Assembly: GCA_965220965.1 (NCBI GenBank) | Contig: OZ244852.1 | Location: forward strand, 824,621 to 888,620 | DNA: 64,000 nucleotides | Source: Candidatus Marinacidobacterium sp. | GTDB lineage: Bacteria > Acidobacteriota > Vicinamibacteria > Marinacidobacterales > Marinacidobacteraceae | Reading direction: 5' to 3' | Shown here: piece after piece, positions 12,119 through 58,422 of the stretch | Numbering within the stretch: the first letter of the stretch is position 1 | Layout of the letters: each line of letters starts with the position of its first letter | The notes under the pieces: generated by a model | The model's database searches: none | Seen by the model: the letters and a program-made list of their open reading frames with translations, nothing else | What the model was told of the DNA's origin: nothing | Translations under genes and position numbers: made by a program

Positions 12119-12147
12119 GTCCCGTCCCGCGCGATGCGGGACGGGAC
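12119..12147. terminator. Perfect 12-bp hairpin between convergent genes (bidirectional terminator candidate)
   Basis: GTCCCGTCCCGC (12119-12130), loop GCGAT, GCGGGACGGGAC (12136-12147). It sits between the TPR-protein stop (12082) and the tlpA-like stop (12149). Confidence 0.6.
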
Positions 12148-12148: not shown

Positions 12149-12907
12149 TCAGCGGCTGTCCAGCAGCCGGTCCACCTCGGCCTCCAGCACCGAGAACGGC
12201 TGGTCGGTGCTGGGCGCCGGATGGAGGAGGCCTTCGCGGTCGATCAGGAAGTTCGCCGGGTAGCGGGCCGTCTGGGTGAAGATGTCGGGCACGAAGCCGT
12301 CCTCCAGCGCCTCGGGGAGGAGGAGGGGGTAGTCCACCTGGACCATGTCGCGGCGGAACGTCTGCTGGACCTCCTCGTCCTCGGTGGAGATGCCGAACAC
12401 CTGGAAGCCCTGATCGGCGCGTTCCTTCGCCAGCCGGTCCAGTTCGGGCATTTCGGCGCGGCAGGGTGGACACCAGGTGGCCCAGATGTTCACCAGTACG
12501 ACCGAGCCGGCGTGGTCGGAGAGCCGGTGACGGTTTCCGTCGAGGTCGGCGGCGAGGAAGTCCGGGGCCGGGACCCCGGCGAGCGCCAGGTTCGCGGCCT
12601 GCCGGGCGCGGCGAACCGCGCCGCCGATCGGGGCCGCGACCAGACCGAGCGAGAGCAGCGCCACCGTGGCGCCGACCCAGCCGGCGCCGGTCATGGCGCC
12701 CGCCCGTCGGGCCTGGAGCGCGCGGCGCAGCGCGAAGACCGGGGGCAGGATCATGACCAGGGCGACGGCGGCGAGCCGGAAGAGGTAGTCCGAGTCCGGG
12801 TCCGGGCTGAGGCGGGTCAGAACCAGGTAGGTTCCGGCGCCGAGGACGGCGGCGACAAAGGGCGAGGCCAGGCCCGACCAGAGCGGAGAGGGCGCGGTTT
12901 TCGTCAT
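12149..12907 (-). CDS. TlpA-like thiol:disulfide oxidoreductase (membrane-anchored thioredoxin fold)
   Basis: Starts at the ATG at 12907 (MTKTAPSPLW...). Several TM helices, then LVNIWATWCPPCRAEMPEL with a WCxxC redox motif. The upstream part of the 753-aa ORF-track entry overlaps the next genes and is rejected. Confidence 0.8.
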   Translation of the reverse strand: MTKTAPSPLWSGLASPFVAAVLGAGTYLVLTRLSPDPDSDYLFRLAAVALVMILPPVFALRRALQARRAGAMTGAGWVGATVALLSLGLVAAPIGGAVRRARQAANLALAGVPAPDFLAADLDGNRHRLSDHAGSVVLVNIWATWCPPCRAEMPELDRLAKERADQGFQVFGISTEDEEVQQTFRRDMVQVDYPLLLPEALEDGFVPDIFTQTARYPANFLIDREGLLHPAPSTDQPFSVLEAEVDRLLDSR

Positions 12908-13917
12908 GGGGAAGCCTCCACGAGGTCCGCGGCCGCGTAGCGGGCGCGGATGCCAGGGACGAGATAGCGGGAGAAGAGGGTCTCCCGGTCGTGCTCCGGG
13001 GCCCAGCCGAAGTCGCGGCGGGCGGCGCTGTCGTCGACCGCCCCGGGCCAGCTCGCGACGATCCGGTCCCGCGCCTCGTCGACCGAGGAGCGCACCACGA
13101 CTCCGGGAAAGTCGCGGCGGACGCGGGCGATGACCTCGTCCGCCGAGAAACTGGGGCCGCCGATGTTGTACGCGTGGCGCCGAAGATCGGCCTTGTCGGC
13201 GTCGGCGAGCTGGAGAAAGCCCCGCACCGCGTCCGGCATGGAGCAGAACGGCAGCCGGGCGTCCGCCCGCACGAAGAAGGCGTAGGGCTCCCCCCGGGCC
13301 GCGGCGTGGAGCAGTTCGGGCGCCCAGTCGCTGGTTCCGCCCTGCGGCGCGGTGTCGCAGGAGATCAGCCCCGGGAACCGGATGGCCCGGAAGTCGAGGC
13401 CGGCGCACTCGCGCTCCATCGCCGCCCCGAGCCGCTCGATGTAGAGCTTCTGGTCGCCGTAGAGCGTGATGGGATCCAGATGGTCTCCCTCGCCGATCGC
13501 GCCCGCCTCCGCCTTGGCGGCCCGGGACCCGAATCCGTAGACCGCGATGGAACTCGGGAACAGGAAGCGGACCGGCGCAGCCGGGGTCGCGTCGCGCGCG
13601 GCCATCTCGAGCAGATGGGCCGCCCCCTCCACGTTGACCCGGTGGGCCAGCGCCGGGACGGTCTCGGCGCGGGTGGAGAGGATGGCCGCGAGGTGAAACA
13701 CCGTCCGCGCCCGGTAGCGCGCGCCGAACGCCGCCCAGAGCTCCCGGTCGAGGATGTCCCCCTGGAAGTGTTCCGTCGGGAGGGCCGCGGCTGCGGCCGG
13801 CGGGGGACGCAGGTCCACCGTCACGACGGCCTCGCCCCGGGCGCGCAGCGAGGTGACCAGCGCGGTTCCGATTTCCCCGGCGGAGCCGGTGACGAGCGTG
13901 ACCGCGCGGCGGCTCAT
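12904..13917 (-). CDS. NAD-dependent epimerase/dehydratase family protein (extended SDR; possibly L-threonine 3-dehydrogenase-like)
   Basis: Rossmann motif VTGSAGEIGTALV, YGDQK (YxxxK) catalytic motif, about 337 aa. 4-nt overlaps with both neighbours. Confidence 0.75.
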   Translation of the reverse strand: MSRRAVTLVTGSAGEIGTALVTSLRARGEAVVTVDLRPPPAAAAALPTEHFQGDILDRELWAAFGARYRARTVFHLAAILSTRAETVPALAHRVNVEGAAHLLEMAARDATPAAPVRFLFPSSIAVYGFGSRAAKAEAGAIGEGDHLDPITLYGDQKLYIERLGAAMERECAGLDFRAIRFPGLISCDTAPQGGTSDWAPELLHAAARGEPYAFFVRADARLPFCSMPDAVRGFLQLADADKADLRRHAYNIGGPSFSADEVIARVRRDFPGVVVRSSVDEARDRIVASWPGAVDDSAARRDFGWAPEHDRETLFSRYLVPGIRARYAAADLVEASP

Positions 13918-14654
13918 GCGCCGCTCTCCTCCGACCCGGGTCGCCCCGCTTCGAGCGTCCGGCGCAGGAACGCTCCGAGAGCCCGGATTTCCTCCTCGCA
14001 GACCTCGTGACCCATGGCGTAGGAGCGGAAGTCCACGTTCCAGCCGTTCGCGCGGAGGGCGTCGCGGGTGGTGGTTCCACCTGCGAAGGGGACGATCTCG
14101 TCGTGGAGTCCGTGCGCCAGGAAAACCGGCGCCGCCACCGGTCCGGCGGGCGCCGCTTCTTCGGGGAACGGGAGGTAGGACGAGAGCGCGGCGAGTCCGG
14201 CGATGGCGGGCGGGGACGCGGCGTCGGGACCACGGGCGGCGGCCGCCGCGAGCGCCACCGCGCCCCCCTGCGAGAAGCCGACGAGCGCGACCCGCTCCGG
14301 GGGGATCCCACGCTCGGCCTCGGCCGCGAGAAGAGCCCGGACCCCGGAAACGACCGCTTCCAGGTGTTCCCGGTTGAGGCGCCGCGAGTCGGCGATCGAC
14401 TCGATGTCATACCAGGCGCGCATCCACATCCCGCCGTTCAGGGTGACCGGCCGGACCGGCGCCTCGGGGAACACGAAGCGGACTCCCAGTGCGGCGGGGA
14501 GGCGCAGCGCGGGCAGCACCGGGACGAAGTCCTGGCCATCGGCCCCGAGTCCATGGAGCCAGAACACGGTCGAGCGGTGGGCGCCGACCGGAGGGATCTC
14601 GACGAGATTCCACGCCGGGAGCGCGGCCGGAGCGGAAGCGGCCGTGGAGGTCAC
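13914..14654 (-). CDS. Alpha/beta hydrolase, phospholipase/carboxylesterase family
   Basis: VFWLHGLGADGQDF, nucleophile elbow GFSQGGAVAL, and later HGLHDEIVP and MGHEV (Ser-Asp-His triad arrangement of the PF02230-type esterases). Confidence 0.75.
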   Translation of the reverse strand: MTSTAASAPAALPAWNLVEIPPVGAHRSTVFWLHGLGADGQDFVPVLPALRLPAALGVRFVFPEAPVRPVTLNGGMWMRAWYDIESIADSRRLNREHLEAVVSGVRALLAAEAERGIPPERVALVGFSQGGAVALAAAAARGPDAASPPAIAGLAALSSYLPFPEEAAPAGPVAAPVFLAHGLHDEIVPFAGGTTTRDALRANGWNVDFRSYAMGHEVCEEEIRALGAFLRRTLEAGRPGSEESGA

Positions 14655-17074
14655 GCTGACTCGCTCAGGATCCGGTCGAGGACTTCGAGGTAGTGGTCGG
14701 CGTCATCGGCGCTGAAGGGCAGAGGGGGCTTGATCTTGATGACGTTCGCGTCCGCGCCGTCCGTGCTGTTCAGGATGTGCGCTCGCCGCATGCGATTCAC
14801 CAGGCGGCTGGCCGTCCCGGTCGCGGGGTCGCGCGACCCGGGGTCGCTCACCAGTTCGAAACCGAGGAAGAGGCCGCGCCCCCGGACCTGCCCGATGACA
14901 GGGTACCGCTTCGCGAGTTCTTCGAGACCGGCGATGAGCCGTCCCCCGACGCGCTCGGCGTGCTCCGCCAGCCCTTCGTCCTCGAGAACGTCGAGCAACG
15001 CGAGCCCGGCGGCGCAGGAAACCGGATTGCCGCCGAAGGTGTTGAAGTACTCCATCCCGGTCTCGAACGAGCGCGCCAGCTCGCGGGTCGTCACGACCGC
15101 CCCCAGCGGGTGTCCGTTTCCGGCGGGCTTGCCCAGGGTCACGATGTCGGGAACGAGCGGCGGGGCGGCGTCCGGCGACGCCTGGACTTCGGCGAAGGCC
15201 CACATCGCGGGACCCACCCGCCCGAACCCGGTCTGGACTTCGTCGGCCACGATGACGCCGCCGGCCTCGCGGGCCGCCTGGTAGACGGCCCGCAGATACC
15301 CCGGAGGAGGAACGACCTGGCCTCCGCACCCCGGGATCGCCTCGGTGATCACCGTCGCCGCTCCCGCCTCGCTGATGCGGCGCTGCGCGTCCTCGATGAG
15401 CGAGCCGGGGAATCCGGGGTCTTCCTCGCGGAAGCGTCCGCGGAAGCCGTCGGGCAGCGGGAGCCGGTGGAGCCAGGGCGGTCCGGGCCGGCCGCCGGGG
15501 CCGTCCAGCTTGTACGGGCTGATCTCGATGAGCGAGGTGAGGTTGCCGTGGTAGGCGCCGTCGAAGACGACGGTGTCCGGGCGCCCGATCCGGCTCCTGG
15601 CGATCCGGAGCGCGAGGTCGTTCGCCTCGCTCCCGGAGTTCGTGAGGAACACGACCTCGAGCGGGTCCGGAAACGTCGCGAGCAGGCGTTCGGCGTAGTC
15701 GGTGAGCTGGCGATAGAGGTAGCGGGTGTTCGTGTTGAGCCGGGCGGCCTGGCGGGCGATCGCCTCCGCCACCCGGGGGTGGGCGTGGCCGACATGGCAG
15801 ACGTTGTTCACCATGTCGAGGTAGGCGCGCCCATCCGCGTCGTAGAGCCGCGCCCCCTCGCCCCCCACCATGTGGATGGGCTCGTCGTAGGACACGCTGA
15901 GCGCCCCACTGAACCGCGCGCGCCGGCTGGCCAGGAGCGCCGCAGCGTCGGGCGCCGGCTCGCCCGGCTGCCGAGAGGACGTTCCGGTTCCGTTGCTGGT
16001 GTGGCCCGCCGCATCGAGGAAGCGCGCGGCGGCGTCCGCTACCGTCGATCCATCGAGTTCCGCCAGCACCCGCCAGACTCCGCTCTCGCTGACCTGCAGG
16101 TCGCTCTCGCCCTCCGCGCCGGAGCCGGGACGCCGGCGGATCGCGGCGATGCCGGCGCTGACCAGCGCCCGCAAGGCGAGCGCCGTCCGGAACGCGGCCG
16201 CCTCCTCCCGCGTCAGCGGCCGCTCCCCGGCGAACCCCGCCAGAACCGAGGCGGCGGCGGTGAGGGGGCTCGCCGCGGGACCGGCGAGATAGAGCGCCGC
16301 GGTGGCCGCCTCCACGATCCCCGGCGCCTCGAGCGCGTCCCCGAAGTCGAGCGCGGCCAGGTCTTCCGGACCGGCGTTGACCGGCGAGCCGGCGGCCAGC
16401 AGCAGGTTGTCGTCGTTCAGGTCGTTGTGGAGCGCAGCCGGGGGAAGCTCGAGGAGACGGCCCAGATCGGAGCGGATCGACTCCGCCACCCGGCGGTAGA
16501 GGCCGGCGCGCTCCGGGGAGGCGATGGCGGTCGCGCCGAGGGCGATGACCCGCCCGGCGTGGCGGGGGGCCCATGGAAGGTCCTGCGCTTCGAGCCCGGG
16601 ATGTCGGAAGCCGGCCAGCGCGCGCTGGAGCCGCCCGGCGAACCGGCCGGCCGCCTCCAGCAGGGCGTCGGTGGGCCGAGGGAAGACCGACAGCGCGACT
16701 CCGTCCTGATGGTGGAGAAGCCGGACGGCGTGGACCCGTCCGGCGAACTCCCGGTGGACGAGGCCCTCGCCGCCGGGCGCCGGCGCGAGGCGGGGCAGGC
16801 GGAGGCGGGGATCCCGCCGCCGGGCGTGCGCCGGCATCGCCGTCTGGAGATCCAGCCGGTCGGCAATTTCCGCCGCGCCCGAGATCTTGAGTACGAACCG
16901 CTCCCCGGACGCGGAGGTCAGGAGGAAGTTCCGGTCGCGCTCGCCGGAGAGAGGGGTCGCCTCCGCTTCGATGCCCCAGACCTCGCGGACGACCGCGGCC
17001 GCTCCGGCGGGATCGAGCGACGGACGTCCGGAGACCGGGTCGAGGAGCGACAGGGGGTCGGCCGGCGACGTCAT
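14651..17074 (-). CDS. Fusion protein: APH/hydroxylysine-kinase-like phosphotransferase (N) + AGXT2L-type class-III PLP enzyme (phospho-lyase/aminotransferase, C)
   Basis: The start ATG at 17074 shares 1 nt with the upstream stop. N-half: ERDRNFLLTSASGERFVLKIS and LHNDLNDDNLL (Brenner-type kinase motif). C-half: YLDMVNNVCHVGHAHPRV, LNTNTRYL, FLTNSGSEANDLALRIAR and DGAYHGNLTSLIEISPYK closely parallel human ETNPPL/PHYKPL. Confidence 0.8.
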   Translation of the reverse strand: MTSPADPLSLLDPVSGRPSLDPAGAAAVVREVWGIEAEATPLSGERDRNFLLTSASGERFVLKISGAAEIADRLDLQTAMPAHARRRDPRLRLPRLAPAPGGEGLVHREFAGRVHAVRLLHHQDGVALSVFPRPTDALLEAAGRFAGRLQRALAGFRHPGLEAQDLPWAPRHAGRVIALGATAIASPERAGLYRRVAESIRSDLGRLLELPPAALHNDLNDDNLLLAAGSPVNAGPEDLAALDFGDALEAPGIVEAATAALYLAGPAASPLTAAASVLAGFAGERPLTREEAAAFRTALALRALVSAGIAAIRRRPGSGAEGESDLQVSESGVWRVLAELDGSTVADAAARFLDAAGHTSNGTGTSSRQPGEPAPDAAALLASRRARFSGALSVSYDEPIHMVGGEGARLYDADGRAYLDMVNNVCHVGHAHPRVAEAIARQAARLNTNTRYLYRQLTDYAERLLATFPDPLEVVFLTNSGSEANDLALRIARSRIGRPDTVVFDGAYHGNLTSLIEISPYKLDGPGGRPGPPWLHRLPLPDGFRGRFREEDPGFPGSLIEDAQRRISEAGAATVITEAIPGCGGQVVPPPGYLRAVYQAAREAGGVIVADEVQTGFGRVGPAMWAFAEVQASPDAAPPLVPDIVTLGKPAGNGHPLGAVVTTRELARSFETGMEYFNTFGGNPVSCAAGLALLDVLEDEGLAEHAERVGGRLIAGLEELAKRYPVIGQVRGRGLFLGFELVSDPGSRDPATGTASRLVNRMRRAHILNSTDGADANVIKIKPPLPFSADDADHYLEVLDRILSESA

Positions 17075-18450
17075 CAGCGGAGTACGCGCCGCAGCACCGA
17101 GAGCTTGCCGCCGTACGGCGGGTAGCGGAGCGGGACGTCCAGCCACCTCGAGGCGGAGAACCAGGCGCGCTGCTGCGAGAGCCGGTCGAAGCCGTGAACC
17201 CCGTGGTAAGCGCCGAAGCCGCTCCGGCCCACGCCCCCGAAGGGAAGCGCGGGGTTGGCGCAGTGGACGACCGCGTCGTTCACCAGCACCGCCCCCGAGC
17301 GCACCGCCGCCGCCGCGGCCCGGACGACCCGCCGGCGGCGGGAGAAGACGTGGAGGACCAGCGGATCGGGATGCCGGGCGAGTTCGGCGAGCGCGTCGTC
17401 CAGCTTCCGGTACGGCAGCAGCGGCAGGATGGGTCCGAAGAGCTCCTCGCTGGCGGCCGGATGCCCCTCCGGCCAGGGGCCCGTCACGGTGGGGGCGAAG
17501 CGGAGCGTTTCCCGGTCCCGCTCTCCCCCGCGGAGCAGCGGCAGGCCGTCCAGCATGCCGGTCAGCCGGTCGAAGTGGGCGCGGTGGACGATCCGGCCGA
17601 AGTCGGGACTGCTGGCGGGGTCCTCCCCGTAGAACCCGTCGAGTGCGCGGAACAGTTCGCTCCGGAAGCGGTCGTATTGGCTCGCCGGGACGAGGACGAA
17701 GTCGGGCGCTACGCAGGTCTGCCCCGCGTTCAGGAATTTCCCCCACGCCAACCGGCGGGCGGCCAGGCGGATATTGGCCTTCTCATCGATCAGGGCCGGA
17801 CATTTTCCTCCCAATTCGAGCGTAACCGGGGTCAAAGTCCGTCCGGCGGCCTCGGCGACGCGCGCTCCCGCGGCGCGGCTCCCGGTGAAGACGATGTGGT
17901 CGAAGGAACCGGAGGAGGCGAGCGCGGCCCCGGTCCGGGCGTCCCCGGAAACGACCTCGATGTGCCCCTCGGCCAGGACTCCCGGAACCCGCGCCGCGAG
18001 CAGCCCCGCGGTCGCCGGGGCGTGTTCCGAGGGCTTCAGCACCACCGTGTTGCCCGCCGCGATCGCCGCGACCGCCGGCCCAAGGCTCAACTGCAGGGGG
18101 TAGTTCCAGGGGGCGATCACCAGGACGACCCCCAGGGGCTCGGAGGTGATCCGGCTGCGCGCCGGCATCGTGGCCAGCGCGGTGGAGACCCGCTGCGGGC
18201 GCATCCAGCGGCGCAGGTTTCGGCGGGCCTGGCGGGCCTCCTGGACGACGAGACCGGTCTGCGCCGCCCACGCCTCGAACGGCGGACACCCGAGATCCTC
18301 CGCCAGCGCCCCCTCCCACGCCGCGCGGTCCTCCACCAGGAGGCGCTCGAGCGCCCGGAGCGCGCCGCGACGGAACGCGATCTCCCGCGGAGCGCCCGAA
18401 GACGCGAGACTCCGGGCCCGCTCGACGGCTCGCGTCAGCCCCTCGTCCAC
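17074..18450 (-). CDS. NAD(P)-dependent aldehyde dehydrogenase (ALDH3/coniferyl-aldehyde-DH-like)
   Basis: ELGGKCP (catalytic Glu) and NAGQTCVAPDFVLV (catalytic Cys), PFGGVGRSGFG near the C-terminus, 458 aa. Confidence 0.85.
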   Translation of the reverse strand: MDEGLTRAVERARSLASSGAPREIAFRRGALRALERLLVEDRAAWEGALAEDLGCPPFEAWAAQTGLVVQEARQARRNLRRWMRPQRVSTALATMPARSRITSEPLGVVLVIAPWNYPLQLSLGPAVAAIAAGNTVVLKPSEHAPATAGLLAARVPGVLAEGHIEVVSGDARTGAALASSGSFDHIVFTGSRAAGARVAEAAGRTLTPVTLELGGKCPALIDEKANIRLAARRLAWGKFLNAGQTCVAPDFVLVPASQYDRFRSELFRALDGFYGEDPASSPDFGRIVHRAHFDRLTGMLDGLPLLRGGERDRETLRFAPTVTGPWPEGHPAASEELFGPILPLLPYRKLDDALAELARHPDPLVLHVFSRRRRVVRAAAAAVRSGAVLVNDAVVHCANPALPFGGVGRSGFGAYHGVHGFDRLSQQRAWFSASRWLDVPLRYPPYGGKLSVLRRVLR

Positions 18451-19593: not shown

Positions 19594-22500
19594 CTACAGG
19601 ACGCGGCGGAGGAGCGTCTCCGCCTCGGCGGGCGTGATGCCGCGCCGGGCGGCGTAGTCCTCGAGCTGGTCCCTCCCGATCCTGCCGACCGAGAAGTAGC
19701 GGGCCTCGGGGCTCGCGAAGTAGAGCCCGGCGACCGACGCGGTCGGGGTGATCGCGAAGGACTCGGTGAGACGGACGCCGATCGCCGCCTCGGCGTCGAG
19801 GGCGTCGAAGATCTCGCGCGCGATCCCGGGGTCCGGGGTCCCCGGGTAGCCGGGAGCGGGCCGGATCCCGCGGTAGCGCTCGCGGAGGAGGTCCTCGGGT
19901 TCCAGGTTTTCCTCTTCGCCGTACCCCAGCTCGCGGCGCGCCGTCTCGTGGAGCTTCTCGGCGAGCGCCTCGGCGAGCCGGTCGGCGAGCGACCGCAGGA
20001 GGAGCGCGTCGTAGTCGTCGCTGGCGCGTTCGGCGGCGGCCACCGCCGTCTCGAGGCCGAGGCCGGCGGTGACGGCGAACATGCCGACCACATCCGCCCC
20101 TCCGGCGGCCGGGGCGCCGGCGCCGCCGTCCCCGAGGAAGTCGGCGAGCGCCAGGCGGGGCCCCTTCCGGTCTTCCTGCTGGCGAAGCGTCGGGATCCGG
20201 AACCGGGGCGGGCCGGACGCCGAGCGCGGTTCCCACACCAGGATGTCGTCGCCCTCCCGCGCGGCCGGGAAGAACCCGTAGACCGCGGCGGCGCGCAGTT
20301 CGTCGCCGGTGGCGAGCGCCGCGGCCCGGGCGCGGGCGGCGGCGAGCAGCTCGCGGGCCGCCGATCCGGAGTCCGGGTGATCCAGCAACGCCGGGAAGGT
20401 TCCCCGGAACTGCCAGGCGTGGAAGAACGGGGTCCAGTCGATGTAGGGGAGCAGCTCCCGGATCGCGATCTCGCGCAGGACGCGCACCCCCAGGAACCGG
20501 GGCCGGACATCCGTGGCCCGGGGGAAGCGGGGCGCGCGCCGGCGGGCCTCGGCGAGCGACAGCAGCGGCGGCCGCCCCTCCTCGCCGCGCTCGCGCAGCC
20601 GGCTCTGGGACCGCCGCAGTTCGGCGACATAGTCCTCCCGCTCGTCGCCCAGCAGGGACCGCGCGACCCCGGACGCCAGCGAGGCGTCCCGGACGTGGAC
20701 CACCGGGCCGGAGCGGGTGGGGGCGAGGCGCAGCGCGGTGTGGCGCGCCGAGGTCGTGGCGCCGCCGATGAGGAGCGGCCGGTGGTCGCCGCGGCGCTCC
20801 ATCTCGACGGCGAACCGCTCCATCTCGGCGAGCGACGGGGTGATGAGTCCGGAGAGCCCGACGAGCGCCGCGCCCCCGGCGTTGGCGCGCTCGAGGATCC
20901 GGTCGGCGGGGACCATGACCCCGAGGTCGTCGACCTCGTAGCCGTTGCACGCCAGCACGATCCCCACGATGCTCTTCCCGATGTCGTGAACATCCCCCTT
21001 CACGGTGGCGAGGACGATCCGGTCGCGGCGATCCGCGGCCTGCTCGTCGTTCCGCATGAAGGGTTCGAGCCGGGCGACCGCCCGCTTCATGACGCGGGCG
21101 CTCTTGACCACCTGGGGCAGGAACATCCGTCCATCGCCGAACCGCTCGCCCACGACCCGCATCCCGTCCATCAGCGGTCCCTCGATCACCCCGAGGGCCG
21201 ACCCGATCCCGGCGAGCGCCTCGTCGGTGTCGGCCTCGATGAAGTCGGTGAAGCCCTGAACGACGGCGTGGGCGAGCCGCTCTTCGACCGGCAGCGCGCG
21301 CCAGGCGTCGTCCGCGCCGCGGCTGGAAGCCTGGGCGCGGGCCTCCGAGGCCACCTCGAGAAGCCGCTCCGACGCGTCCGGTCGGCGCGCCAGGACCACA
21401 TCCTCCACCCGCTCGCGCAGGTCTTCGGGGATGTCGTCGTAGGCCGGGAGGCGGCCGGCGTTCACGATCCCCATATCGAGGCCGGCGGCGATGGCGTGGT
21501 GGAGGAACACCGCGTTCATCGCCTGTCGCACGCCCTCGTTGCCGCGGAAGGCGAACGAGAGATTCGAGACCCCCCCGGAGAGCAGCGATCCGGGACAGGC
21601 CTCGCGGATCCGGGGAAGCGCGTTCAGGAACTCGAGCGCATAGCGGTCGTGCTCCGCGATCCCGGTGGCGACCGCGAGGACGTTCGGGTCGAAGGCGATG
21701 TCCCCCGGCGGAACCCCGATGCCGGTGAGGAGGCGGTAGGCGCGGGCGCAGATCGCGGTCTTGCGGTCGGCGTCGACCGCCTGGCCCTCCTCGTCGAACG
21801 CCATCACGATGAGCGCGGCGCCGTAGCGGCGCACCCGCCGCGCGGAGTCGAGGAAAGCCTCCTCCCCGTCCTTGAGCGAGAGCGAGTTCACCACGCCCTT
21901 GCCGGGAAGCTGGCGGAGCCCGGCCTCGATCACGTCGAGGTCGGAGCTGTCCACGACCACCGGCAGCCGGGCGATGTCCGGCTCCATCGCCACCAGCCGC
22001 AGGAACCGGCTCATGCAGCCGGCCGAGTCGAGGAGCGCCTCGTCCATGTTGACGTCGATGAGGTTCGCGCCCCCGGCCACCTGATCCTGCGCCACGCCGA
22101 TGGCGGCCTCGAAGCGCTCGCGCCGGATGAGCCGCGCGAACCGGCGCGAGCCGGTGACGTTCGTGCGTTCGCCGACGATGAGGAAGGCCCGCTCCGGCCG
22201 CACCAGTGGCTCGTTTCCGGCGAGGCGCAGTCCGGACCGGGCGGCGGGGACCTCGCGCGGCGCCGCGCCCCGGAGCGCCTTCCGGACGGCGTCGATGTGC
22301 TCCGGCGTCGTGCCGCAGCAGCCCCCGGTGAAGTTGAGCAGGCCCTGGCGCGCGAGGTCCCGGAGCGCCGACGCGGTGGCGACGGGGATCTCGTCGTAGC
22401 CGCCGAGTTCGTTCGGCAGTCCGGCGTTCGGGACGGCGCCCACCGGGACCGGGGCGTAGCGCGCCATGCGCTCCAGGATCGGACCCATCGCCTCCGCGCC

Positions 22501-23250
22501 GAGCGAGCAGTTCACCCCGGCCGCCGTGACGCCGGCGTGCTCGACGGACACCCAGAACGCCTCGGCGTCCTGCCCCGTCAGGTTCCGGCCTCCCTGATCC
22601 ACCGCGGTGAACGAGACCAGGAGCCCGGGGTCACCGGGGGCCTCGGACATCGCCTCGGCGCAGGCGTCGAGCGCCGCCTTGGCGTTCAGCGTGTCGAAGC
22701 AGGTCTCGACCAGCAGCAGGTCCGCCCCGCCGGCGAGGAGCCCTCGCGCCTGTTCCAGGTAGGCGGCGCGGAGTTCCTCCCAGCCGATGGCCCGGTACGC
22801 CGGATCGGCCACATCGGGCGACACGCTGAGCGTCCGGTTCGTCGGGCCCATCGAGCCCAGCACGAACACCGGCCGGTCGGGCTGGAACGCCTCGATGGCG
22901 CGACGGGCGACGCGGGCGCCGGCGCGGTTGATCTCGAACGCGAAGTCCTCGAGGCCGTAGTCGGTGAGGGAGACCGCGGTCCCGTTGAACGTGTTCGTGG
23001 TGAGCGCATCGGCGCCCGCCGCGAGGTAGTCCAGGTGGACGCGCTCCACGAGCTCCGGACCGGTGAGGCAGAGGACGTCGTGAAGCCCCGCGAGCGGTTT
23101 CGGGTGTTCCCGGAGCCGGTCGCCGCGGAAGGCGGACTCCTCCAGCCGCAGCGCCTGAAGCATCGTCCCGATCGCCCCGTCGAACACGAGGATGCGCTCG
23201 CCGAGCGCCTCCCGGAAGGCGGCCCGGCCGCCGCGCGCCGCGCCGCTCAT
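19594..23250 (-). CDS. metH: Cobalamin-dependent methionine synthase MetH
   Basis: Hcy-binding domain ([24 protein letters not shown]), pterin-binding domain, B12-binding GDVHDIGK (DxHxxG), and C-terminal reactivation domain. The most plausible start is the ATG at 23250 (MSGAARGG...). The ORF-track start at 23388 adds 46 non-conserved residues. Confidence 0.95.
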
Positions 23251-23386
23251 GCTGGCGCGCAGTCTAGGGCGGCCCCAGTCGGTCTCCGGGCCGCCCGGTA
23301 CCATCCCCGAGCCTCGCCGGATGGCCGGGCGGGCCGCTCCGGAGCCCGTCCCGCCCGGGCGGGCGTTGACAACAGGCTCCCCGCTC

Positions 23387-24625
23387 ATGCCCCTTCATCT
23401 CTGGGTCGCCGTCGCCATCGTGGGCGGCATCGCGACCGGCGTCGCGCTCGGCGAGACGGCGGCGCTCCTGCAGCCGATCGCGGACCTGTTCGTCCAGCTC
23501 CTGCGGATGCTCATCGCGCCGTTGATCTTCATCACGCTCTCGCTGGCGATCATCGGGATCCGCGGGCGCACCGCCGGGAGCATCGGTCTGCGGGTCTTCC
23601 TCTACAACCTCGCGACCCTCGGCGCGGCGCTCGTCATCGGGATCGGTTTCGCGGTCTGGATCGGGCCCGGCGTCGGCGTCGACCTGTCGGCGCTCGGAGG
23701 CGTACCGGATGACCCCGGAACCGGGGCGGCGCCCACCGGCCGATCCTTCGGCGACATCCTCGTCGGCATCGTGCCTTCGAGCATCGGTCGCGCCTTCGTG
23801 GAAGGCGATGTGCTCCAGGTCCTGTTCCTGTCGATCGTGTTCGGCTTCGCGGTGAACGCGTTGGGCGCCGAGCGGACAAAGCCGCTGGTGGCTGTCCTGC
23901 GCGCCGTGAACGACGTCCTCTACCGGGTCGTCGGGTGGGTCGTGCGGCTCGCGCCGCTGGGCGTCTTTGCGATCCTCGCCGCAGTCGTTGGCCAGTCGGG
24001 CCTCGGAGTGCTGGGCGCGCTCGGCTGGTACATGGGGGTCTGCCTCATCGCCGCGACCGTGCAGGTGGTGGGCGTTCACGGGGGCGCGGTGCGGCTCCTG
24101 GCCGGGCAACCGATCCGGAACATGCTGCGGGCGCTGCGCGAGCCGCTCCCGGTCGCGTTCGCCTCGGTCTCCACCGCCGCGGCCCTCCCGGTGTCCATGG
24201 CCTCGGTCCCGGAGGCGACCGGGATCTCCCGCCGGGTCGCGGGGTTCGCGCTCCCGTTCGGCGCGGCGGTGGGCCGCGACTCGAGCGGGATCTACCAGGT
24301 CGTCTCGGTCGTCACGATCGCGCAGCTCGTCGGGGAGCCGCTCGCCGGCGTCCAGTTCGCGGTGCTCTGGGTCACCGCGATCCTCAGCTCCTGGGCGGTG
24401 TCGGCGGTTCCCGGCGCCAGCTTCGTGAATCTCACGATCCTGCTCGGCGCGATGGGCCTACCGCTCCACCTCTCGGTCCTCGTCCTCGCGGTGGAGCGCC
24501 CGCTCGACCACCTGCGCACCTCGGGGAACCTCATCGGTCAGCTCTCGAACGCGGTCTTCACCGGGGCCACGTCCGGGGAGATCGGCCCTCCGGGCCGGAG
24601 CAGGACCGCCGCTCCGGTGACCTGA
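23387..24625 (+). CDS. Dicarboxylate/amino acid:cation symporter (DAACS/GltP-DctA family)
   Basis: From the ATG at 23387: [22 protein letters not shown]...[18 protein letters not shown], polytopic, with [18 protein letters not shown] and SAVPGASFV segments typical of the family. Confidence 0.8.
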
Positions 24626-25667: not shown

Positions 25668-27320
25668 CTAGCCGAGCAGCAGGTTCCGGGCCCGCCGGTC
25701 GGCGCGCGGGTCCTCGAACGACGCGAGCAGCCAGTTCGCGAACCCGGGGCCGTAGCGGTTCCGGAAGACCGCCGGGCTGAGTCGGCGCTCCTGGGGGACG
25801 CCTTCGGGAAACAGACCGTTGCGGGCGCGCAGGAAGCGGGCCCGGCGCTCCTCGTCGCGCCGCTTGGCGGCGCGCACCGCCCGTTTTTCCAGTCCGTCCA
25901 GGATCGCGAGCATCTTCCCCCGGGTTCGTTGCGCCGTGGGGCCGAGGCTGTGGTCGAGCGCCTCGACGGCGGACTCGACGGCCCGAAGGCCGGCGTCGAG
26001 ATCGGCGCGGGTGGCGGCGATCGCCGCGGCGACTCCGGGGTCTTCGGTCACCCGGTTCAGCGCCGCCTCGTCCCGGGCGGCCAGTTCGTCGAAATCGATC
26101 CCGTCGCGGTCCACGACGCGAAGCTGCGAGGCGTTCATCACCGTCACCTGGTGGCGGGGCGTGACCAGCGGGCGCGGGATCCCGTGGAGCCCGTAGAGGC
26201 CGCCGATCTGGGCGTGGTAGGCGATCTCGGACGGGCCGGCGACGTAGGCGAGCGTCGGAAGCAGGAAGTCCTGGATCAGCGGGCGGAGCAGGACCGCGGC
26301 GCTGAGCCGCTCCGGCGCGGCCCGGAGCGCATCGGGCGCCAGCTCTTCGGCGCGCGCTCTCCGGCGGGCGCCCGACTCGTCGGTCACGAAGACGCCGTAT
26401 CCCTCGGGCGTCGCCTGCCCGGAGTAGCCGGCGGCCTCGATGCGGGCGGTGCTCCTCCGGATGCGTCGACGCCCGTCCTCCCCGGCGGCGGCCCGTTCGT
26501 ACACCGCCAGAGCGGACTGCTTGAAGACCGGAGCGCCGCCGTCCATCGCGACGAGCCCGGTTCCGCGGGTCAGGCGCAGGACGAATCGGGTGAAGGCCTC
26601 GCCGAGGGAGTGGCCGGGCGCATAGGCGGCGTGAAGCGCCTCCGCGACCTCGCCCGAGAAGTCGGTCGCCGGAAGCGCTTCGGTGAAGGCGGAGACGAGG
26701 TCGGGGATCGACTCGTCCAGAAGTCGGCGGGCCGCCGGGAGGCGGAGCGCCGCGTCGGCGGGCTCGTAGCGGAACACGCGGGCTTCCCCGGCGGGGTCGA
26801 GCAGCCAGGCGTCGCGCACCTCTTCGAAGTCGTGGTCGTCCGACTCGACCCAGAAGACCGGAACGACCGGGTTCCCGACGATGGCTTCGAGTTCGCGGGC
26901 GGTCGCGACCGCCGACATGGCCTTGGCCAGCGAGTAGAGCGGACCGCCGAAGAGGCCGGCCTGCTGTCCGGTGACGACCACCAGGACGCCGGGCTCGGCG
27001 ATCCGGGCGGCGGCGGCCACCGCGAGCGCGTCGCCGCCGAGGGTCTCGTTCGTGTGGACGAGCGCGGCTGCGGTGGCCTCGCGCGGATGGGGGAACGCGC
27101 TCACCGAGGCGGCCGTCCGCTCCGCCACCGCAGGATCGAACGGGTCGGGGAGCAGATCGGCGAAGGCTCCGGGGTCCGCGGCCCAGGCGGGGAAGAACCC
27201 GCGGGCGGCGCCGGGCGGAACGAGCGGCAGCGTGCGCAGGAAGCCGCTCCCGGCGGCTCCGGGGAGGCCCGCAGCGGGGGCGGCGGACTCGCGCGGCGAG
27301 GTGACGGCGCCTCCGTTCAT
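25668..27320 (-). CDS. bshC: Bacillithiol biosynthesis cysteine-adding enzyme BshC
   Basis: ATG at 27320 (MNGGAVTSP...). About 550 aa. Hallmark LVVVTGQQAGLFGGPLYSLAKAMSAV, and a C-terminal coiled region as in BshC/YllA. The upstream 199 codons of the ORF-track entry overlap lepB out of frame. Confidence 0.75.
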   Translation of the reverse strand: MNGGAVTSPRESAAPAAGLPGAAGSGFLRTLPLVPPGAARGFFPAWAADPGAFADLLPDPFDPAVAERTAASVSAFPHPREATAAALVHTNETLGGDALAVAAAARIAEPGVLVVVTGQQAGLFGGPLYSLAKAMSAVATARELEAIVGNPVVPVFWVESDDHDFEEVRDAWLLDPAGEARVFRYEPADAALRLPAARRLLDESIPDLVSAFTEALPATDFSGEVAEALHAAYAPGHSLGEAFTRFVLRLTRGTGLVAMDGGAPVFKQSALAVYERAAAGEDGRRRIRRSTARIEAAGYSGQATPEGYGVFVTDESGARRRARAEELAPDALRAAPERLSAAVLLRPLIQDFLLPTLAYVAGPSEIAYHAQIGGLYGLHGIPRPLVTPRHQVTVMNASQLRVVDRDGIDFDELAARDEAALNRVTEDPGVAAAIAATRADLDAGLRAVESAVEALDHSLGPTAQRTRGKMLAILDGLEKRAVRAAKRRDEERRARFLRARNGLFPEGVPQERRLSPAVFRNRYGPGFANWLLASFEDPRADRRARNLLLG

Positions 27321-42394: not shown

Positions 42395-42424
42395 CGGGCC
42401 CTGAGCCCGGACAAGGAGATCTCC

Positions 42425-43516: not shown

Positions 43517-43568
43517 GAATCGGGCTTGAACTCCAGCGCTCGTCGGCGCGCGGTATCCGCGAGGAACG

Positions 43569-46594: not shown

Positions 46595-46615
46595 CCGGCA
46601 AGGAGCGCCCCTTCC

Positions 46616-58408: not shown

Positions 58409-58422
58409 GCGGCTCACGGGAC

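What the first reader, a model, noticed from the sequence alone, without database searches (positions are those of the whole stretch)
14651..18450. Fused APH-type kinase + AGXT2L-type PLP phospho-lyase, start/stop-coupled to an aldehyde dehydrogenase: a predicted hydroxylysine / amino-alcohol catabolic module
The C-terminal half shows near-diagnostic identity blocks with mammalian ETNPPL/PHYKPL (NNVxHVGHxHP, LNTNxRxL, NSGSEANDLALRxAR, AYHGxLxSLIEISPYK). Those enzymes are phospho-lyases acting on phosphoethanolamine or 5-phosphohydroxylysine, not true aminotransferases. The N-terminal half is an APH/hydroxylysine-kinase-like phosphotransferase. Kinase followed by phospho-lyase yields an aldehyde plus ammonia and phosphate. 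The ALDH encoded immediately upstream (its stop shares a base with the fusion's ATG at 17074) would oxidise that aldehyde. This gives a coherent three-step pathway. The true substrate in this organism is unknown.
Basis: partly seen in the sequence, partly recalled or inferred. Interest (0 to 1): 0.5.

Follow-up and report, generated by a model that had tools for sequence, protein, structure and literature searches.

The report
Amino-alcohol kinase/phospho-lyase fusion operon
The window carries a real gene fusion of a small-molecule kinase to an ETNPPL-type PLP phospho-lyase; it is an untested member of a bacterial family already noted in 2012, and it sits in a five-gene operon whose other genes point away from hydroxylysine as the substrate in this lineage.

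Summary
An 807-aa ORF (14651-17074, minus strand) fuses an APH/homoserine-kinase-II-type kinase to a class-III PLP domain. The closest solved relatives of that domain are human ETNPPL (48% identity) and the Arthrobacter phospho-lyase A1RDF1. Its ATG shares one base with the stop codon of an upstream ALDH.

The kinase, phospho-lyase, ALDH logic is supported by homology and by intact catalytic residues. The unit is larger than reported. It is a five-gene overlapping operon: class-3 ALDH, fusion, Abhydrolase_2 esterase, GalE-like threonine-3-dehydrogenase homologue, TlpA-like redoxin. The first four genes are conserved across Acidobacteriota.

Most acidobacterial relatives carry a peptidase M23 domain between kinase and lyase. 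That domain is degenerate in close relatives and absent here.

In Proteobacteria the same fusion sits beside beta-galactosidases, galactose genes, saccharopine-pathway genes and a bona fide piperideine-6-carboxylate dehydrogenase. That context fits glycosylated hydroxylysine from collagen. None of those genes accompanies the acidobacterial form.

The substrate here is therefore open. My estimates are threonine-derived 1-aminopropan-2-ol about 0.35, hydroxylysine about 0.25 and ethanolamine about 0.15.

This is a new member of a known but biochemically untested bacterial family. Interest is moderate.

The parts
17074..18450 (-). Class-3 aldehyde dehydrogenase, 458 aa, first gene of the operon. 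The catalytic Glu (ELGGK) and Cys (GQTCVAPD) are present.
   Evidence: Pfam Aldedh, E 2e-80. Best PDB matches are rat ALDH3A1 1ad3 (355 bits), human ALDH3A1 3sza and human fatty aldehyde dehydrogenase 4qgk (330 bits). The NCBIfam L-piperidine-6-carboxylate dehydrogenase model is not among its 25 best of 44 hits. Sequence.
16040..17074 (-). Kinase domain of the fusion (residues 1-345). It is of the APH / homoserine-kinase-II / aminopropanol-kinase type, with K63, H216-x-D218-x4-N223 and D243-F-G-D246.
   Evidence: Pfam APH, E 1e-10. Catalytic residues are invariant across 30 homologues. A family profile hits 2ppq homoserine kinase (1e-17), 6ef6 (1e-11) and amicoumacin kinase; one search names 6ef6 the microcompartment-associated aminopropanol kinase. 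The AF2 model has pLDDT 90.7, and its best Foldseek matches are the same three.
15953..16039 (-). Low-complexity linker (about residues 346-374). It occupies the position of the ~250-aa peptidase M23 domain found in most acidobacterial relatives.
   Evidence: The linker is 29-41 aa in window/L001/L002, against 238-282 aa in trifunctional relatives. M23 motifs in the relatives are analysed.
14651..15952 (-). PLP-dependent phospho-lyase domain of the fusion (residues 375-807, plus stop). It is ETNPPL-type, with Schiff-base Lys649 (TLGKPAGNGHP), Asp611 (ADEVQ) and the clade motifs NNVxHVGH and LNTNxRYL.
   Evidence: Pfam Aminotran_3, E 1e-74. PDB matches: 6tor ETNPPL 406 bits, 5g4i A1RDF1 312 bits, next best 196 bits. 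Identity is 48% to ETNPPL and 36% to racemases. Clade-specific invariant residues are listed.
13914..14654 (-). Abhydrolase_2 carboxylesterase/lysophospholipase-type hydrolase, 246 aa, with a GFSQG nucleophile elbow. Its GTG start overlaps the fusion's stop (GTGA).
   Evidence: Pfam PF02230, E 2e-38. PDB matches: Pseudomonas carboxylesterases 3cn7/1auo (~146 bits) and acyl-protein thioesterase 1 (100 bits). Sequence. Present next to the fusion in 30/30 acidobacterial loci.
12904..13917 (-). GalE-like (extended SDR) L-threonine-3-dehydrogenase homologue, 337 aa, with GxxGxxG and YGDQK. Its ATG overlaps the previous stop (ATGA).
   Evidence: Pfam Epimerase, E 3e-30. The 18 best PDB matches are all structures of GalE-like threonine-dehydrogenase-type enzymes: most are deposited as L-threonine 3-dehydrogenase, natural or artificial (183-123 bits), and a few (3wmw, 3a1n, 3a9w, 5y1d) under generic epimerase names. 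The next best hit scores 55 bits. Motifs HLAAILS, PSSIA, PGLIS..T.P.GGTSDWA, MPDAVR and SWP..DDS.AR.D.GW are shared with the aligned TDHs. Homologues at ~50% identity are named threonine 3-dehydrogenase by JGI. Present in 28/30 acidobacterial loci.
12149..12907 (-). TlpA/ResA-like thioredoxin-fold protein, 252 aa, with an N-terminal stretch rich in hydrophobic residues (my reading of the translation; no topology prediction was run) and a WCPPC motif. It is the last gene of the operon, and its ATG overlaps the previous stop (ATGA). Its role in the pathway is unknown; it may only be co-transcribed.
   Evidence: Translation. NCBIfam TlpA/ResA hits are below cut-off. Syntenic in Vicinamibacteria only.
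12119..12147 (.). Perfect 12-bp inverted repeat (GTCCCGTCCCGC / GCGGGACGGGAC, 5-nt loop). It lies between the convergent ends of the operon and the TPR gene and is a likely bidirectional terminator hairpin without a T-run.
   Evidence: The consensus terminator scan found nothing.

Best explanation
The region is a five-gene, translationally coupled catabolic operon for a vicinal (1,2-) amino alcohol.

Proposed steps:
1. The N-terminal domain of the 807-aa fusion phosphorylates the hydroxyl group next to a terminal aminomethyl group, using a nucleoside triphosphate.
2. The C-terminal PLP domain forms an external aldimine with the amine, removes the alpha proton and eliminates the beta-phosphate. 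Hydrolysis of the resulting enamine/imine releases ammonia, phosphate and an aldehyde. This is the chemistry of ETNPPL and PHYKPL.
3. The class-3 ALDH encoded immediately upstream oxidises the aldehyde to the acid.
4. The co-transcribed threonine-dehydrogenase-type SDR acts on the same NH3+-C-C-OH motif. It either makes the substrate (L-threonine to 2-amino-3-oxobutyrate, then spontaneous decarboxylation to aminoacetone, then 1-aminopropan-2-ol) or interconverts aminoketone and amino alcohol.
5. The Abhydrolase_2 esterase probably frees the substrate from, or processes, an acylated precursor.

What is shown: gene order and overlaps, domain identities, clade membership, intact catalytic residues, and conservation of the ALDH-fusion-esterase-SDR set across Acidobacteriota.

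What is inferred: every catalytic activity and the substrate.

Substrate estimates for this lineage: 1-aminopropan-2-ol/aminoacetone from threonine about 0.35; 5-hydroxylysine about 0.25; ethanolamine/phosphoethanolamine about 0.15; another 1,2-amino alcohol about 0.2. The confidence given below is for the generic kinase, phospho-lyase, ALDH mechanism.
For: Lyase domain: human ETNPPL (406 bits) and the A1RDF1 phospho-lyase (312 bits) are far ahead of all transaminases and racemases (at most 196 bits). The phospho-lyase clade has 100/100 bootstrap support. Thirty-eight clade-invariant residues differ from both racemase outgroups, including NNVxH, NTNxR, YK and EYFN. The Schiff-base Lys and the PLP-binding Asp are present.

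Kinase domain: K63, HxDxxxxN and DFGD are all conserved. The nearest solved relatives are hydroxy-amino-acid and amino-alcohol kinases: homoserine kinase 2ppq and the microcompartment-associated aminopropanol kinase 6ef6.

Operon: TGATG, GTGA, ATGA and ATGA overlaps join all five genes. ALDH3, fusion, ABH2 and SDR stay together in 28-30 of 30 acidobacterial loci, with neighbour identity down to 45-50%.

SDR: it matches only GalE-like threonine-dehydrogenase-type structures in the PDB and keeps their motifs. No KBL gene was found among the ORFs scanned in the window, which cover most of the likely genes up to 54 kb. TDH product that is not taken by KBL decarboxylates to aminoacetone (PMC9814548).

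Precedent, from my own knowledge: dehydrogenase + APH kinase + class-III phospho-lyase + ALDH is the enzyme set of the Mycobacterium RMM aminoacetone/aminopropanol pathway, and of the Pseudomonas amino-alcohol pathway of Jones and Turner (1973).

Family-level support for kinase then lyase then aldehyde: in Proteobacteria the fusion is flanked by an equivalog-level piperideine-6-carboxylate dehydrogenase (814 and 809 bits, cut-off 730) and by saccharopine-pathway genes. The predicted product of hydroxylysine kinase plus lyase, 2-aminoadipate semialdehyde, is the substrate of that dehydrogenase.
Against: No activity was measured. The step from aminoacetone to aminopropanol has no dedicated enzyme in the operon unless the TDH homologue performs it. 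Class-3 ALDHs are best known for medium-chain, long-chain or aromatic aldehydes, not for propanal or acetaldehyde. The esterase, the M23 domain of relatives, and the Exo_endo_phos and AbgT genes of soil relatives have no role in a simple threonine/aminopropanol scheme. They hint instead at a conjugated precursor, an ester, amide or phosphodiester. The kinase domains of distant Acidobacteria are as similar to the hydroxylysine-context proteobacterial kinases (32-38%) as the latter are to one another across classes (31%). The lyase shares DMVNNVCHVGH with the hydroxylysine-context clade rather than with ETNPPL or A1RDF1. Hydroxylysine is therefore not excluded. Homologues of the SDR at 50% identity occur in unrelated contexts.
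Confidence: 0.75

Rival explanations
1. The operon is specifically a 5-hydroxylysine module, as the family appears to be in Proteobacteria. In this reading the kinase is a hydroxylysine kinase, the lyase is a 5-phosphohydroxylysine phospho-lyase giving 2-aminoadipate semialdehyde, and the class-3 ALDH is a non-orthologous replacement for piperideine-6-carboxylate dehydrogenase. The M23 domain of relatives would release hydroxylysine from collagen-derived peptides.
For: Of 51 non-acidobacterial loci, 33 carry at least one of GH2/GH42 beta-galactosidase, P6C dehydrogenase or saccharopine-pathway genes next to the fusion. Two unrelated beta-galactosidase families (GH2 and GH42), a YgjK-type GH63 glucosidase and Leloir genes fit the collagen glycan Glc-alpha1,2-Gal-beta-Hyl (glycan structure in PMC8537180 and PMC12003778). 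Kinase divergence does not separate the two context classes, and the lyase shares several residues with the hydroxylysine-context clade. Many of the closest relatives are marine MAGs; some record titles carry names I recognise as sponge-metagenome bins, which is my reading and is not stated in the tool output. Sponges are collagen-rich hosts (own knowledge).
Against: None of the 30 acidobacterial loci has any of the hydroxylysine-context genes within the flanks. The ALDH is class 3 and not P6C-dehydrogenase-like. The TDH homologue and the esterase have no place in the known hydroxylysine route. The M23 domain has lost its zinc ligands in close relatives and is deleted here.
Confidence: 0.25
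2. The operon recycles ethanolamine or phosphoethanolamine from phospholipid head groups. The esterase deacylates lysophospholipid, a phosphodiesterase (present in soil relatives) frees ethanolamine or its phosphate, the kinase and lyase give acetaldehyde, and the ALDH gives acetate. Alternatively the ALDH handles a fatty aldehyde from ether lipids.
For: The two characterised closest relatives of the lyase, ETNPPL and A1RDF1, are named or deposited as (ethanolamine-phosphate) phospho-lyases; that both act on phosphoethanolamine is from my own knowledge. The esterase family includes lysophospholipases such as APT1. Soil relatives add an Exo_endo_phos gene, and another lineage adds a PF01663 phosphodiesterase, directly next to the fusion. 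Class-3 ALDHs include fatty aldehyde dehydrogenase.
Against: The window lineage has no phosphodiesterase or ethanolamine permease in the operon. The TDH homologue is unexplained. Class-3 ALDHs are poor acetaldehyde enzymes (own knowledge).
Confidence: 0.15
3. The C-half is a conventional omega-transaminase, and the kinase domain has an unrelated or regulatory role.
For: The Pfam and NCBIfam family names are 'aminotransferase class III' and 'aspartate aminotransferase family'. All PLP-binding residues are shared with transaminases.
Against: There is a score gap of more than 200 bits between ETNPPL and the best transaminase or racemase (406 vs 196 bits; A1RDF1 leads by about 115 bits). The clade has 100% bootstrap support and clade-specific motifs. 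The kinase catalytic residues are conserved across about 80 genomes. The fusion, or adjacency in Undibacterium, is maintained across phyla.
Confidence: 0.04
4. The fusion is an assembly or indel artefact, and the organism really has separate kinase and lyase genes.
For: Another assembly of the same population has two extra bases (window 16268 and 16188) that split the ORF. Separate adjacent kinase and lyase genes do exist naturally in Undibacterium.
Against: That assembly has 3.5x coverage and also breaks the ALDH gene. Only the window's frame keeps conserved residues P270, A274, G280, P286, E291, R302, S306 and S329 in register with homologues. Independent MAGs L001 and L002 have the same continuous 805-aa architecture.
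Confidence: 0.03

Closest known systems
Human ETNPPL (AGXT2L1) and PHYKPL (AGXT2L2) with hydroxylysine kinase HYKK (AGPHD1); Veiga-da-Cunha et al., J Biol Chem 2012 (cited in PMC8154272; content from memory)
   Same: The lyase chemistry and fold are the same. Identity to ETNPPL is 48% over 408 residues, with all signature motifs. The logic is also the same: a kinase makes the phospho-ester that the lyase destroys. By my recollection, the bacterial bi- and tri-functional fusions were the clue for identifying the human enzymes.
   Different: Here the two activities are on one polypeptide. The partner ALDH is class 3. The operon adds a TDH-type SDR and an esterase. The substrate is unproven. HYKK and PHYKPL could not be compared directly.
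A1RDF1 phospho-lyase of Arthrobacter aurescens TC1 (PDB 5g4i/5g4j)
   Same: It is a bacterial class-III 'transaminase' homologue deposited as a phospho-lyase. It is the second-best solved relative (312 bits, 43% identity).
   Different: A1RDF1 is a stand-alone lyase and branches outside the fusion proteins in the NJ tree (76/100). It differs in the NNVxHVGH neighbourhood.
RMM (Rhodococcus/Mycobacterium) microcompartment aminoacetone / 1-amino-2-propanol pathway; aminopropanol kinase PDB 6ef6 (pathway details from memory)
   Same: The four enzyme functions are the same: amino-alcohol dehydrogenase, APH-type kinase, class-III phospho-lyase and aldehyde dehydrogenase. 6ef6 is among the three best solved relatives of the kinase domain.
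   Different: No shell-protein genes were found among the ORFs scanned in the window. Here the kinase and lyase are fused. The dehydrogenase is a GalE-like TDH homologue rather than a classical SDR, and the ALDH is class 3.
NCBIfam PRK06148 / PRK06149 (APH + peptidase M23 + class-III aminotransferase, ~1000 aa, 'hypothetical protein' / 'aminotransferase')
   Same: These are the best family models for both halves: 763 bits for the whole protein and 181 bits for the N-half alone. Most acidobacterial relatives have this three-domain form.
   Different: The window protein lacks the M23 domain and scores below the family cut-off of 1128 bits. No function is attached to these models.
Proteobacterial bifunctional fusions in galactosidase / P6C-dehydrogenase / saccharopine loci (e.g. 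Colwellia piezophila L044, Thalassotalea castellviae L057, Shewanella L069)
   Same: The two-domain architecture is the same, at about 770-800 aa. The lyase halves are 50-54% identical and the catalytic residues are the same.
   Different: The kinase halves are only 22-31% identical. The gene neighbourhood is completely different. The signature residues Y45/Y128/D167 of that group are E/L/P here.

Membership tests
ETNPPL/PHYKPL-type phospho-lyase clade of class-III (fold-type I) PLP enzymes | Aminotran_3 fold with Schiff-base lysine and PLP-binding aspartate | tested here: met
   PF00202, E 1e-74. K649 lies in TLGKPAGNGHP and D611 in ADEVQTGFGR.
ETNPPL/PHYKPL-type phospho-lyase clade of class-III (fold-type I) PLP enzymes | Groups with characterised phospho-lyases to the exclusion of transaminases, racemases and decarboxylases | tested here: met
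   6tor 406 bits and 5g4i 312 bits, against at most 196 bits for all others. NJ bootstrap 100/100 against two racemase outgroups. Only ETNPPL and A1RDF1 were available as references; PHYKPL was not.
ETNPPL/PHYKPL-type phospho-lyase clade of class-III (fold-type I) PLP enzymes | Clade-specific motifs (NNVxHVGHxHP, LNTNxR, SPYK, MEYFNT) | tested here: met
   All are present. They are invariant in at least 97% of 83 clade members and differ in both outgroups.
ETNPPL/PHYKPL-type phospho-lyase clade of class-III (fold-type I) PLP enzymes | 1,2-elimination of phosphate and ammonia instead of transamination | not testable with these tools
   This needs an enzyme assay.
APH-fold small-molecule kinases (homoserine kinase II / aminopropanol kinase / HYKK group) | ATP-binding Lys, Brenner motif HxDxxxxN and metal-binding DFG-type Asp | tested here: met
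   K63, H216/D218/N223 and D243-F-G-D246 are invariant or nearly so across 30 and 26 homologues.
APH-fold small-molecule kinases (homoserine kinase II / aminopropanol kinase / HYKK group) | Closest solved structures are hydroxy-amino-acid or amino-alcohol kinases rather than antibiotic or protein kinases | tested here: met
   The family profile hits 2ppq at 1e-17 and 6ef6 at 1e-11, against APH(2'') at about 1e-3. Foldseek TM-scores are 0.62-0.66. The single sequence alone gave no PDB hit.
APH-fold small-molecule kinases (homoserine kinase II / aminopropanol kinase / HYKK group) | Orthology with vertebrate hydroxylysine kinase HYKK | not testable with these tools
   There is no HYKK structure in the PDB, the AlphaFold library was unavailable and the 2012 paper is not held.
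NCBIfam PRK06148 (APH-M23-aminotransferase trifunctional protein) | Full-length match above the curated cut-off, including the central peptidase M23 domain | tested here: not met
   763 bits against a cut-off of 1128, in two separate stretches. There is no PF01551 hit. The linker is about 30 aa, against about 250 aa in relatives.
L-piperidine-6-carboxylate (2-aminoadipate semialdehyde) dehydrogenase, the ALDH expected for a hydroxylysine pathway | Match to NCBIfam NF050084 at or above 730 bits | tested here: not met
   The model is not among the window ALDH's 25 best of 44 NCBIfam hits. The ALDHs beside the proteobacterial fusions score 814 and 809 bits. They are 26-31% identical to the window ALDH.
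Class-3 aldehyde dehydrogenases | Closest relatives are ALDH3 enzymes; about 450-aa form; catalytic Cys and Glu | tested here: met
   1ad3 355 bits, 3sza 352 bits, 4qgk 330 bits. ELGGK and GQTCVAPD are present.
GalE-like (SDR) L-threonine 3-dehydrogenase | GxxGxxG, catalytic Ser/Thr + YxxxK, and the TDH-typical PGLIS..T.PGGT(T/S)D(Y/W)A and SWP..DDS.AR.DWGW segments | tested here: met
   Alignments to five TDH structures. The 18 best PDB hits are all GalE-like TDH-type structures, some deposited under generic epimerase names.
GalE-like (SDR) L-threonine 3-dehydrogenase | [quoted passage not shown] | tested here: not met
   There is no Aminotran_1_2/KBL gene in the operon or among the ORFs scanned elsewhere in the window.
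RMM-type aminoacetone/aminopropanol utilisation locus | Dehydrogenase + APH kinase + class-III phospho-lyase + ALDH encoded together | tested here: met
   Homology to the actual RMM proteins was tested only for the kinase (6ef6).
RMM-type aminoacetone/aminopropanol utilisation locus | Bacterial microcompartment shell genes in the locus | tested here: not met
   None of the 40 window ORFs scanned with Pfam has a BMC domain. ORFs at 52350-52841 and beyond 54 kb were not scanned.

The most novel reading that the evidence does not exclude
The acidobacterial gene set is a distinct, undescribed amino-alcohol pathway rather than a copy of the hydroxylysine route. The set comprises a class-3 ALDH, the kinase/(M23)/phospho-lyase, an Abhydrolase_2 esterase and a GalE-like threonine-dehydrogenase homologue, with Exo_endo_phos and AbgT added in soil lineages. 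One possibility is a shell-less, KBL-independent route from threonine via aminoacetone and 1-aminopropan-2-ol phosphate to propionate. Another is the breakdown of an esterified, amidated or phosphodiester-linked amino alcohol. In parallel, the proteobacterial branch of the same family would mark an undescribed utilisation locus for collagen's glycosylated hydroxylysine: GH63 glucosidase, GH2/GH42 galactosidase, kinase/lyase, then P6C dehydrogenase.
Probability: 0.35. Interest if true: 0.6.

Novelty: new member of a known kind. Interest (0 to 1): 0.4.

Why it matters
By my recollection, bacterial kinase/phospho-lyase fusions were the clue that identified human HYKK, PHYKPL and ETNPPL. I found no report of an assay on the bacterial proteins themselves: ten full-text searches found none, and NCBI still names the family 'hypothetical protein' or 'aminotransferase'.

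This work shows that the family falls into at least two context classes.

1. One class, in marine and freshwater Proteobacteria, gives a directly testable model for how bacteria consume glycosylated hydroxylysine released from collagen.
2. The other class, in Acidobacteriota including this window, couples the same chemistry to a threonine-dehydrogenase-type enzyme, an esterase and a class-3 ALDH. It probably handles a different amino alcohol.

Either result would correct thousands of 'aminotransferase' annotations and add a route to nitrogen and carbon cycling of amino alcohols. For the window itself the finding is a well-supported functional prediction, not a surprise.

Tried and rejected
1. 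Actinomycete origin. I assumed this from the 73% GC, but the genome scan places the closest relatives in Acidobacteriota (Vicinamibacteria / 'Ca. Marinacidobacterium').

2. The 1031-aa reading of the ORF. Rejected on codon-position GC and on homologue starts.

3. Single-sequence PDB search with the N-half. It found nothing; a family profile was needed.

4. Direct comparison with HYKK and PHYKPL. The 2012 paper is not held, the AlphaFold libraries were unavailable, and no names were attached to the listed homologues.

5. Literature on bacterial hydroxylysine catabolism or characterised bacterial fusions. Nothing relevant turned up in ten searches.

6. An independent link between the fusion and medium-chain (Zn) threonine dehydrogenases. 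The ADHs near the fusion in Litorilinea (L082) and L086 score far below the TDH cut-offs, and the nearby aminotransferase in L086 is a cysteine-desulfurase-like protein, not KBL.

7. Whether the SDR subfamily is always tied to the fusion. Homologues at 50% identity sit in unrelated contexts.

8. Specificity-determining positions in the lyase and kinase halves. These gave mixed signals and cannot be mapped without coordinates.

9. The deep branching order of the lyase tree. It is unresolved: acidobacterial clade 15/100.

10. Sigma-70 promoter and intrinsic-terminator scans. They found nothing. There is no Rfam element in the window.

11. A sphingoid-base reading (kinase plus lyase on sphingosine-type 2-amino-1,3-diols). 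I considered and dropped it, because beta-elimination there would give a ketone, leaving the ALDH without a substrate. This is reasoning only.

Full report
**What is in the sequence.**

The window has about 73% GC, so long spurious ORFs occur on both strands. Codon-position GC and domain searches single out a minus-strand chain of five genes whose start and stop codons overlap:

| Gene | Coordinates |
|---|---|
| ALDH | 17074-18450 |
| 807-aa fusion | 14651-17074 |
| Abhydrolase_2 hydrolase | 13914-14654 |
| Extended SDR | 12904-13917 |
| TlpA-like thioredoxin-fold protein | 12149-12907 |

- The junctions are TGATG, GTGA, ATGA and ATGA.
- A perfect 12-bp hairpin at 12119-12147 lies between this operon and a convergent TPR gene.
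- Upstream, MsrA is divergent and MetH follows. The rest of the scanned window is housekeeping and holds no microcompartment shell, KBL, glycosidase or lysine-catabolic gene.

**Is the fusion real?**

A public contig of the same population (ENA ERZ26695579, 3.5x coverage) is identical to the window over 13 kb except for four one-base indels. Two of them (window 16268 and 16188) split the kinase and lyase into overlapping genes in that assembly, and one (17513) breaks the ALDH. Three points favour the window's reading:

- The window's frame keeps the conserved residues of kinase helices 269-345 in register with homologues.
- Two independent MAGs (L001, L002; 71% identity) have the same uninterrupted 805-aa architecture.
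- More than 300 genomes encode fused relatives.

I take the fusion as real and the low-coverage contig as erroneous. Read mapping would settle it.

**The lyase half.**

- Residues 375-807 are a class-III PLP domain.
- Against all PDB sequences, the best match is human ethanolamine-phosphate phospho-lyase (6tor; 406 bits, 48% identity). Next is the Arthrobacter phospho-lyase A1RDF1 (5g4i; 312 bits). Everything else (racemases, GabT, dialkylglycine decarboxylase) scores 196 bits or less.
- In an NJ tree of 81 fusion-family lyase domains plus ETNPPL, A1RDF1 and two racemases, the phospho-lyase clade has 100/100 support.
- Thirty-eight residues are at least 97% invariant in the clade and differ in both outgroups. 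They include the NNVxH, NTNxR, YK and EYFN blocks.
- The Schiff-base lysine (K649) and the PLP aspartate (D611) are present.
Deeper nodes are unresolved (acidobacterial clade 15/100), so the position of ETNPPL inside the clade is not informative.

**The kinase half.**

- Pfam APH is modest (E 1e-10), and the single sequence finds no solved structure.
- An alignment of 30 homologues shows the catalytic set intact: K63, H216-x-D218-x4-N223 and D243-F-G-D246.
- A profile of that alignment finds type-II homoserine kinase 2ppq (1e-17), 6ef6 (1e-11) and amicoumacin kinase, well ahead of antibiotic kinases. One search identifies 6ef6 as the microcompartment-associated aminopropanol kinase.
- An AlphaFold model (pLDDT 90.7) gives the same ranking by Foldseek.
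- Orthology with vertebrate HYKK could not be tested.

**Relatives and their architecture.**

- The nearest relatives are Acidobacteriota (Vicinamibacteria, 'Ca. Marinacidobacterium'), many of them from marine metagenomes.
- Most are about 1000-1060 aa with a peptidase M23 domain between kinase and lyase. This is the NCBIfam PRK06148 architecture, which the window protein matches only below cut-off.
- The M23 zinc and catalytic motifs (HxxxD, HxH) are intact in distant Acidobacteria and in L023/L028.
- They are degenerate (QxxxE; HLR, RLE, QLQ) in L003, L005, L013 and L017.
- The domain is absent in window/L001/L002, which form an 86% clade inside the 100%-supported Vicinamibacteria clade.
- I infer decay followed by deletion of M23 in this lineage.

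**Gene context splits the family in two.**

- *Acidobacterial loci.* In 28-30 of 30 loci the fusion is flanked by the class-3 ALDH, the Abhydrolase_2 gene and the SDR, with neighbour identity down to 45-50%. Soil lineages add an Exo_endo_phos gene upstream and an AbgT transporter downstream. One lineage has a PF01663 phosphodiesterase instead.
- *Other phyla.* In 33 of 51 loci, mainly Gamma- and Betaproteobacteria, the two-domain fusion lies next to at least one of the following. In Undibacterium the kinase and lyase are separate adjacent genes.
  - a GntR regulator with a LacZ-type GH2 beta-galactosidase, or a GH42 one in Rhodanobacter;
  - a YgjK-type GH63 glucosidase;
  - GalK, GalT, GalM and a sodium-solute symporter;
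  - the two saccharopine-pathway genes;
  - an ALDH that passes NCBI's equivalog cut-off for L-piperidine-6-carboxylate dehydrogenase (814 and 809 bits against 730).
- *What the proteobacterial context means.* Collagen hydroxylysine carries Glc-alpha1,2-Gal-beta (PMC8537180, PMC12003778). Hydroxylysine kinase plus phospho-lyase yields 2-aminoadipate semialdehyde, which is the substrate of P6C dehydrogenase and the product of saccharopine dehydrogenase. This context is therefore strong indirect evidence that the proteobacterial fusions are hydroxylysine kinase/phosphohydroxylysine phospho-lyases.
- None of these genes accompanies any acidobacterial fusion.

**What the window's partners say.**

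- The ALDH is class 3: rat and human ALDH3A1 at about 353 bits, and human fatty aldehyde dehydrogenase at 330 bits. It is only 26-31% identical to the P6C dehydrogenases.
- The hydrolase resembles Pseudomonas carboxylesterases and acyl-protein thioesterase/lysophospholipase and has a GFSQG nucleophile elbow.
- The SDR is the most specific clue.
  - Its 18 best PDB matches are all GalE-like threonine-dehydrogenase-type structures (183-123 bits), and the next hit scores 55 bits.
  - It keeps the TDH-typical segments around the catalytic Ser/Tyr/Lys and the GGT(T/S)D(Y/W)A and SWP..DDS.AR.DWGW loops.
  - Canonical tdh is paired with kbl. Without KBL the product decarboxylates to aminoacetone (PMC9814548). 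No kbl is present among the ORFs scanned here.
- From my own knowledge, a dehydrogenase, an APH-type kinase, a class-III phospho-lyase and an ALDH form the Mycobacterium RMM aminoacetone/1-amino-2-propanol pathway. The same set forms the older Pseudomonas amino-alcohol pathway.

**Best reading.**

- I have high confidence (about 0.75-0.85) that the operon degrades a 1,2-amino alcohol by phosphorylation, PLP-dependent elimination of phosphate and ammonia, and oxidation of the aldehyde.
- The substrate is not settled.
  - I favour threonine-derived aminoacetone/1-aminopropan-2-ol (about 0.35). The TDH homologue, the absence of KBL and the non-P6C ALDH point that way.
  - Hydroxylysine remains possible (about 0.25). 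The kinase halves of distant Acidobacteria are no more different from hydroxylysine-context kinases than those are among themselves, and the lyase shares residues such as DMVNNVCHVGH with that clade.
  - Ethanolamine from phospholipid head groups (about 0.15) would explain the esterase and the phosphodiesterases of relatives.
- No scheme explains the esterase, M23, Exo_endo_phos and AbgT well. Together they suggest that the amino alcohol arrives as a conjugate.

**Comparison with what is known, and novelty.**

- The fusion type is known. It has NCBIfam models, and by my recollection Veiga-da-Cunha et al. 2012 used it as a guide to the human enzymes.
- I found no biochemical characterisation of any bacterial fusion in the held literature.
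- The window gene is thus a new member of a known kind, in a lineage-specific operon variant.
- The more interesting by-products lie partly outside the window: the two context classes, the M23 decay series, and the apparent glycosylated-hydroxylysine utilisation loci of marine Proteobacteria.

Noticed in passing
L057 338-14400; L044 2677-10963; L069 4520-11064; L080 4668-13139; L053 5157-12239: Proteobacterial relatives of the fusion lie in loci that read like an undescribed utilisation system for collagen's Glc-Gal-hydroxylysine. The loci contain a YgjK-type GH63 glucosidase, a GntR regulator, a GH2 (or GH42) beta-galactosidase, the kinase/lyase, an equivalog-level P6C dehydrogenase, saccharopine-pathway genes, Leloir genes, an NhaC-type carrier, a TonB receptor and an S9 peptidase.
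   Followed up: partly
L003, L005, L013, L017 versus L023, L028, L035, L040, L041, L073, L081 (central ~250 aa of the fusion); window 15953-16039: The peptidase M23 domain between kinase and lyase shows a decay series. Its zinc and catalytic motifs are intact in some Acidobacteria, mutated in the window's close relatives and deleted in window/L001/L002.
   Followed up: partly
window 18472, 17513, 16268, 16188 (L087 = ENA ERZ26695579 ctg116337): A public 3.5x-coverage assembly of the same population differs by four one-base indels. They fragment the ALDH and split the fusion in its gene calls, so protein databases hold a 472-aa 'aminotransferase' (P0007) and a 345-aa 'APH' for this organism.
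   Followed up: yes
L043, L047, L049, L053, L054, L065, L031: In Undibacterium and other Oxalobacteraceae the kinase and the lyase are separate adjacent genes preceded by P6C dehydrogenase. This is a natural unfused version of the same pair.
   Followed up: partly
L081, L084, L085 (5738-16088); L086 (8001-12136): Soil acidobacterial relatives extend the operon with an Exo_endo_phos family gene upstream and an AbgT-family transporter downstream. Another lineage places a PF01663 phosphodiesterase directly after the fusion, near a GalK-like kinase, a nucleotidyltransferase and an SSF symporter.
   Followed up: partly
window 19594-23388 (-) and 29973-31817 (+): A full-length cobalamin-dependent methionine synthase (MetH) lies in the window. 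So does a separate fusion of a homocysteine S-methyltransferase domain to methylenetetrahydrofolate reductase. MetH synteny next to the operon is conserved across Vicinamibacteria.
   Followed up: no
window 25668-27917 (-): An unusually long (749-aa) BshC-like protein, related to bacillithiol biosynthesis, occurs in this acidobacterium. The Pfam match starts only at residue 277.
   Followed up: no
window 41525-50161 (+): There is a MoxR AAA+ / DUF58 / VWA-BatA / DUF4175 gene row (Bat-like 'aerotolerance' operon), preceded by a DUF4159 gene and a 1170-aa TPR/peptidase-MA protein.
   Followed up: no
window 50001-52000 and 58001-64000: GC content drops from about 0.73 to 0.62-0.67 in these stretches. 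There is no Rfam family anywhere in the window. The genes there were not examined.
   Followed up: no
L022 3285-7640: In a planctomycete contig the longest ORF containing the fusion is 1451 aa, with about 680 residues upstream of the kinase domain and no Pfam match there. It may be an over-extended ORF call in high-GC DNA or an additional N-terminal domain.
   Followed up: no
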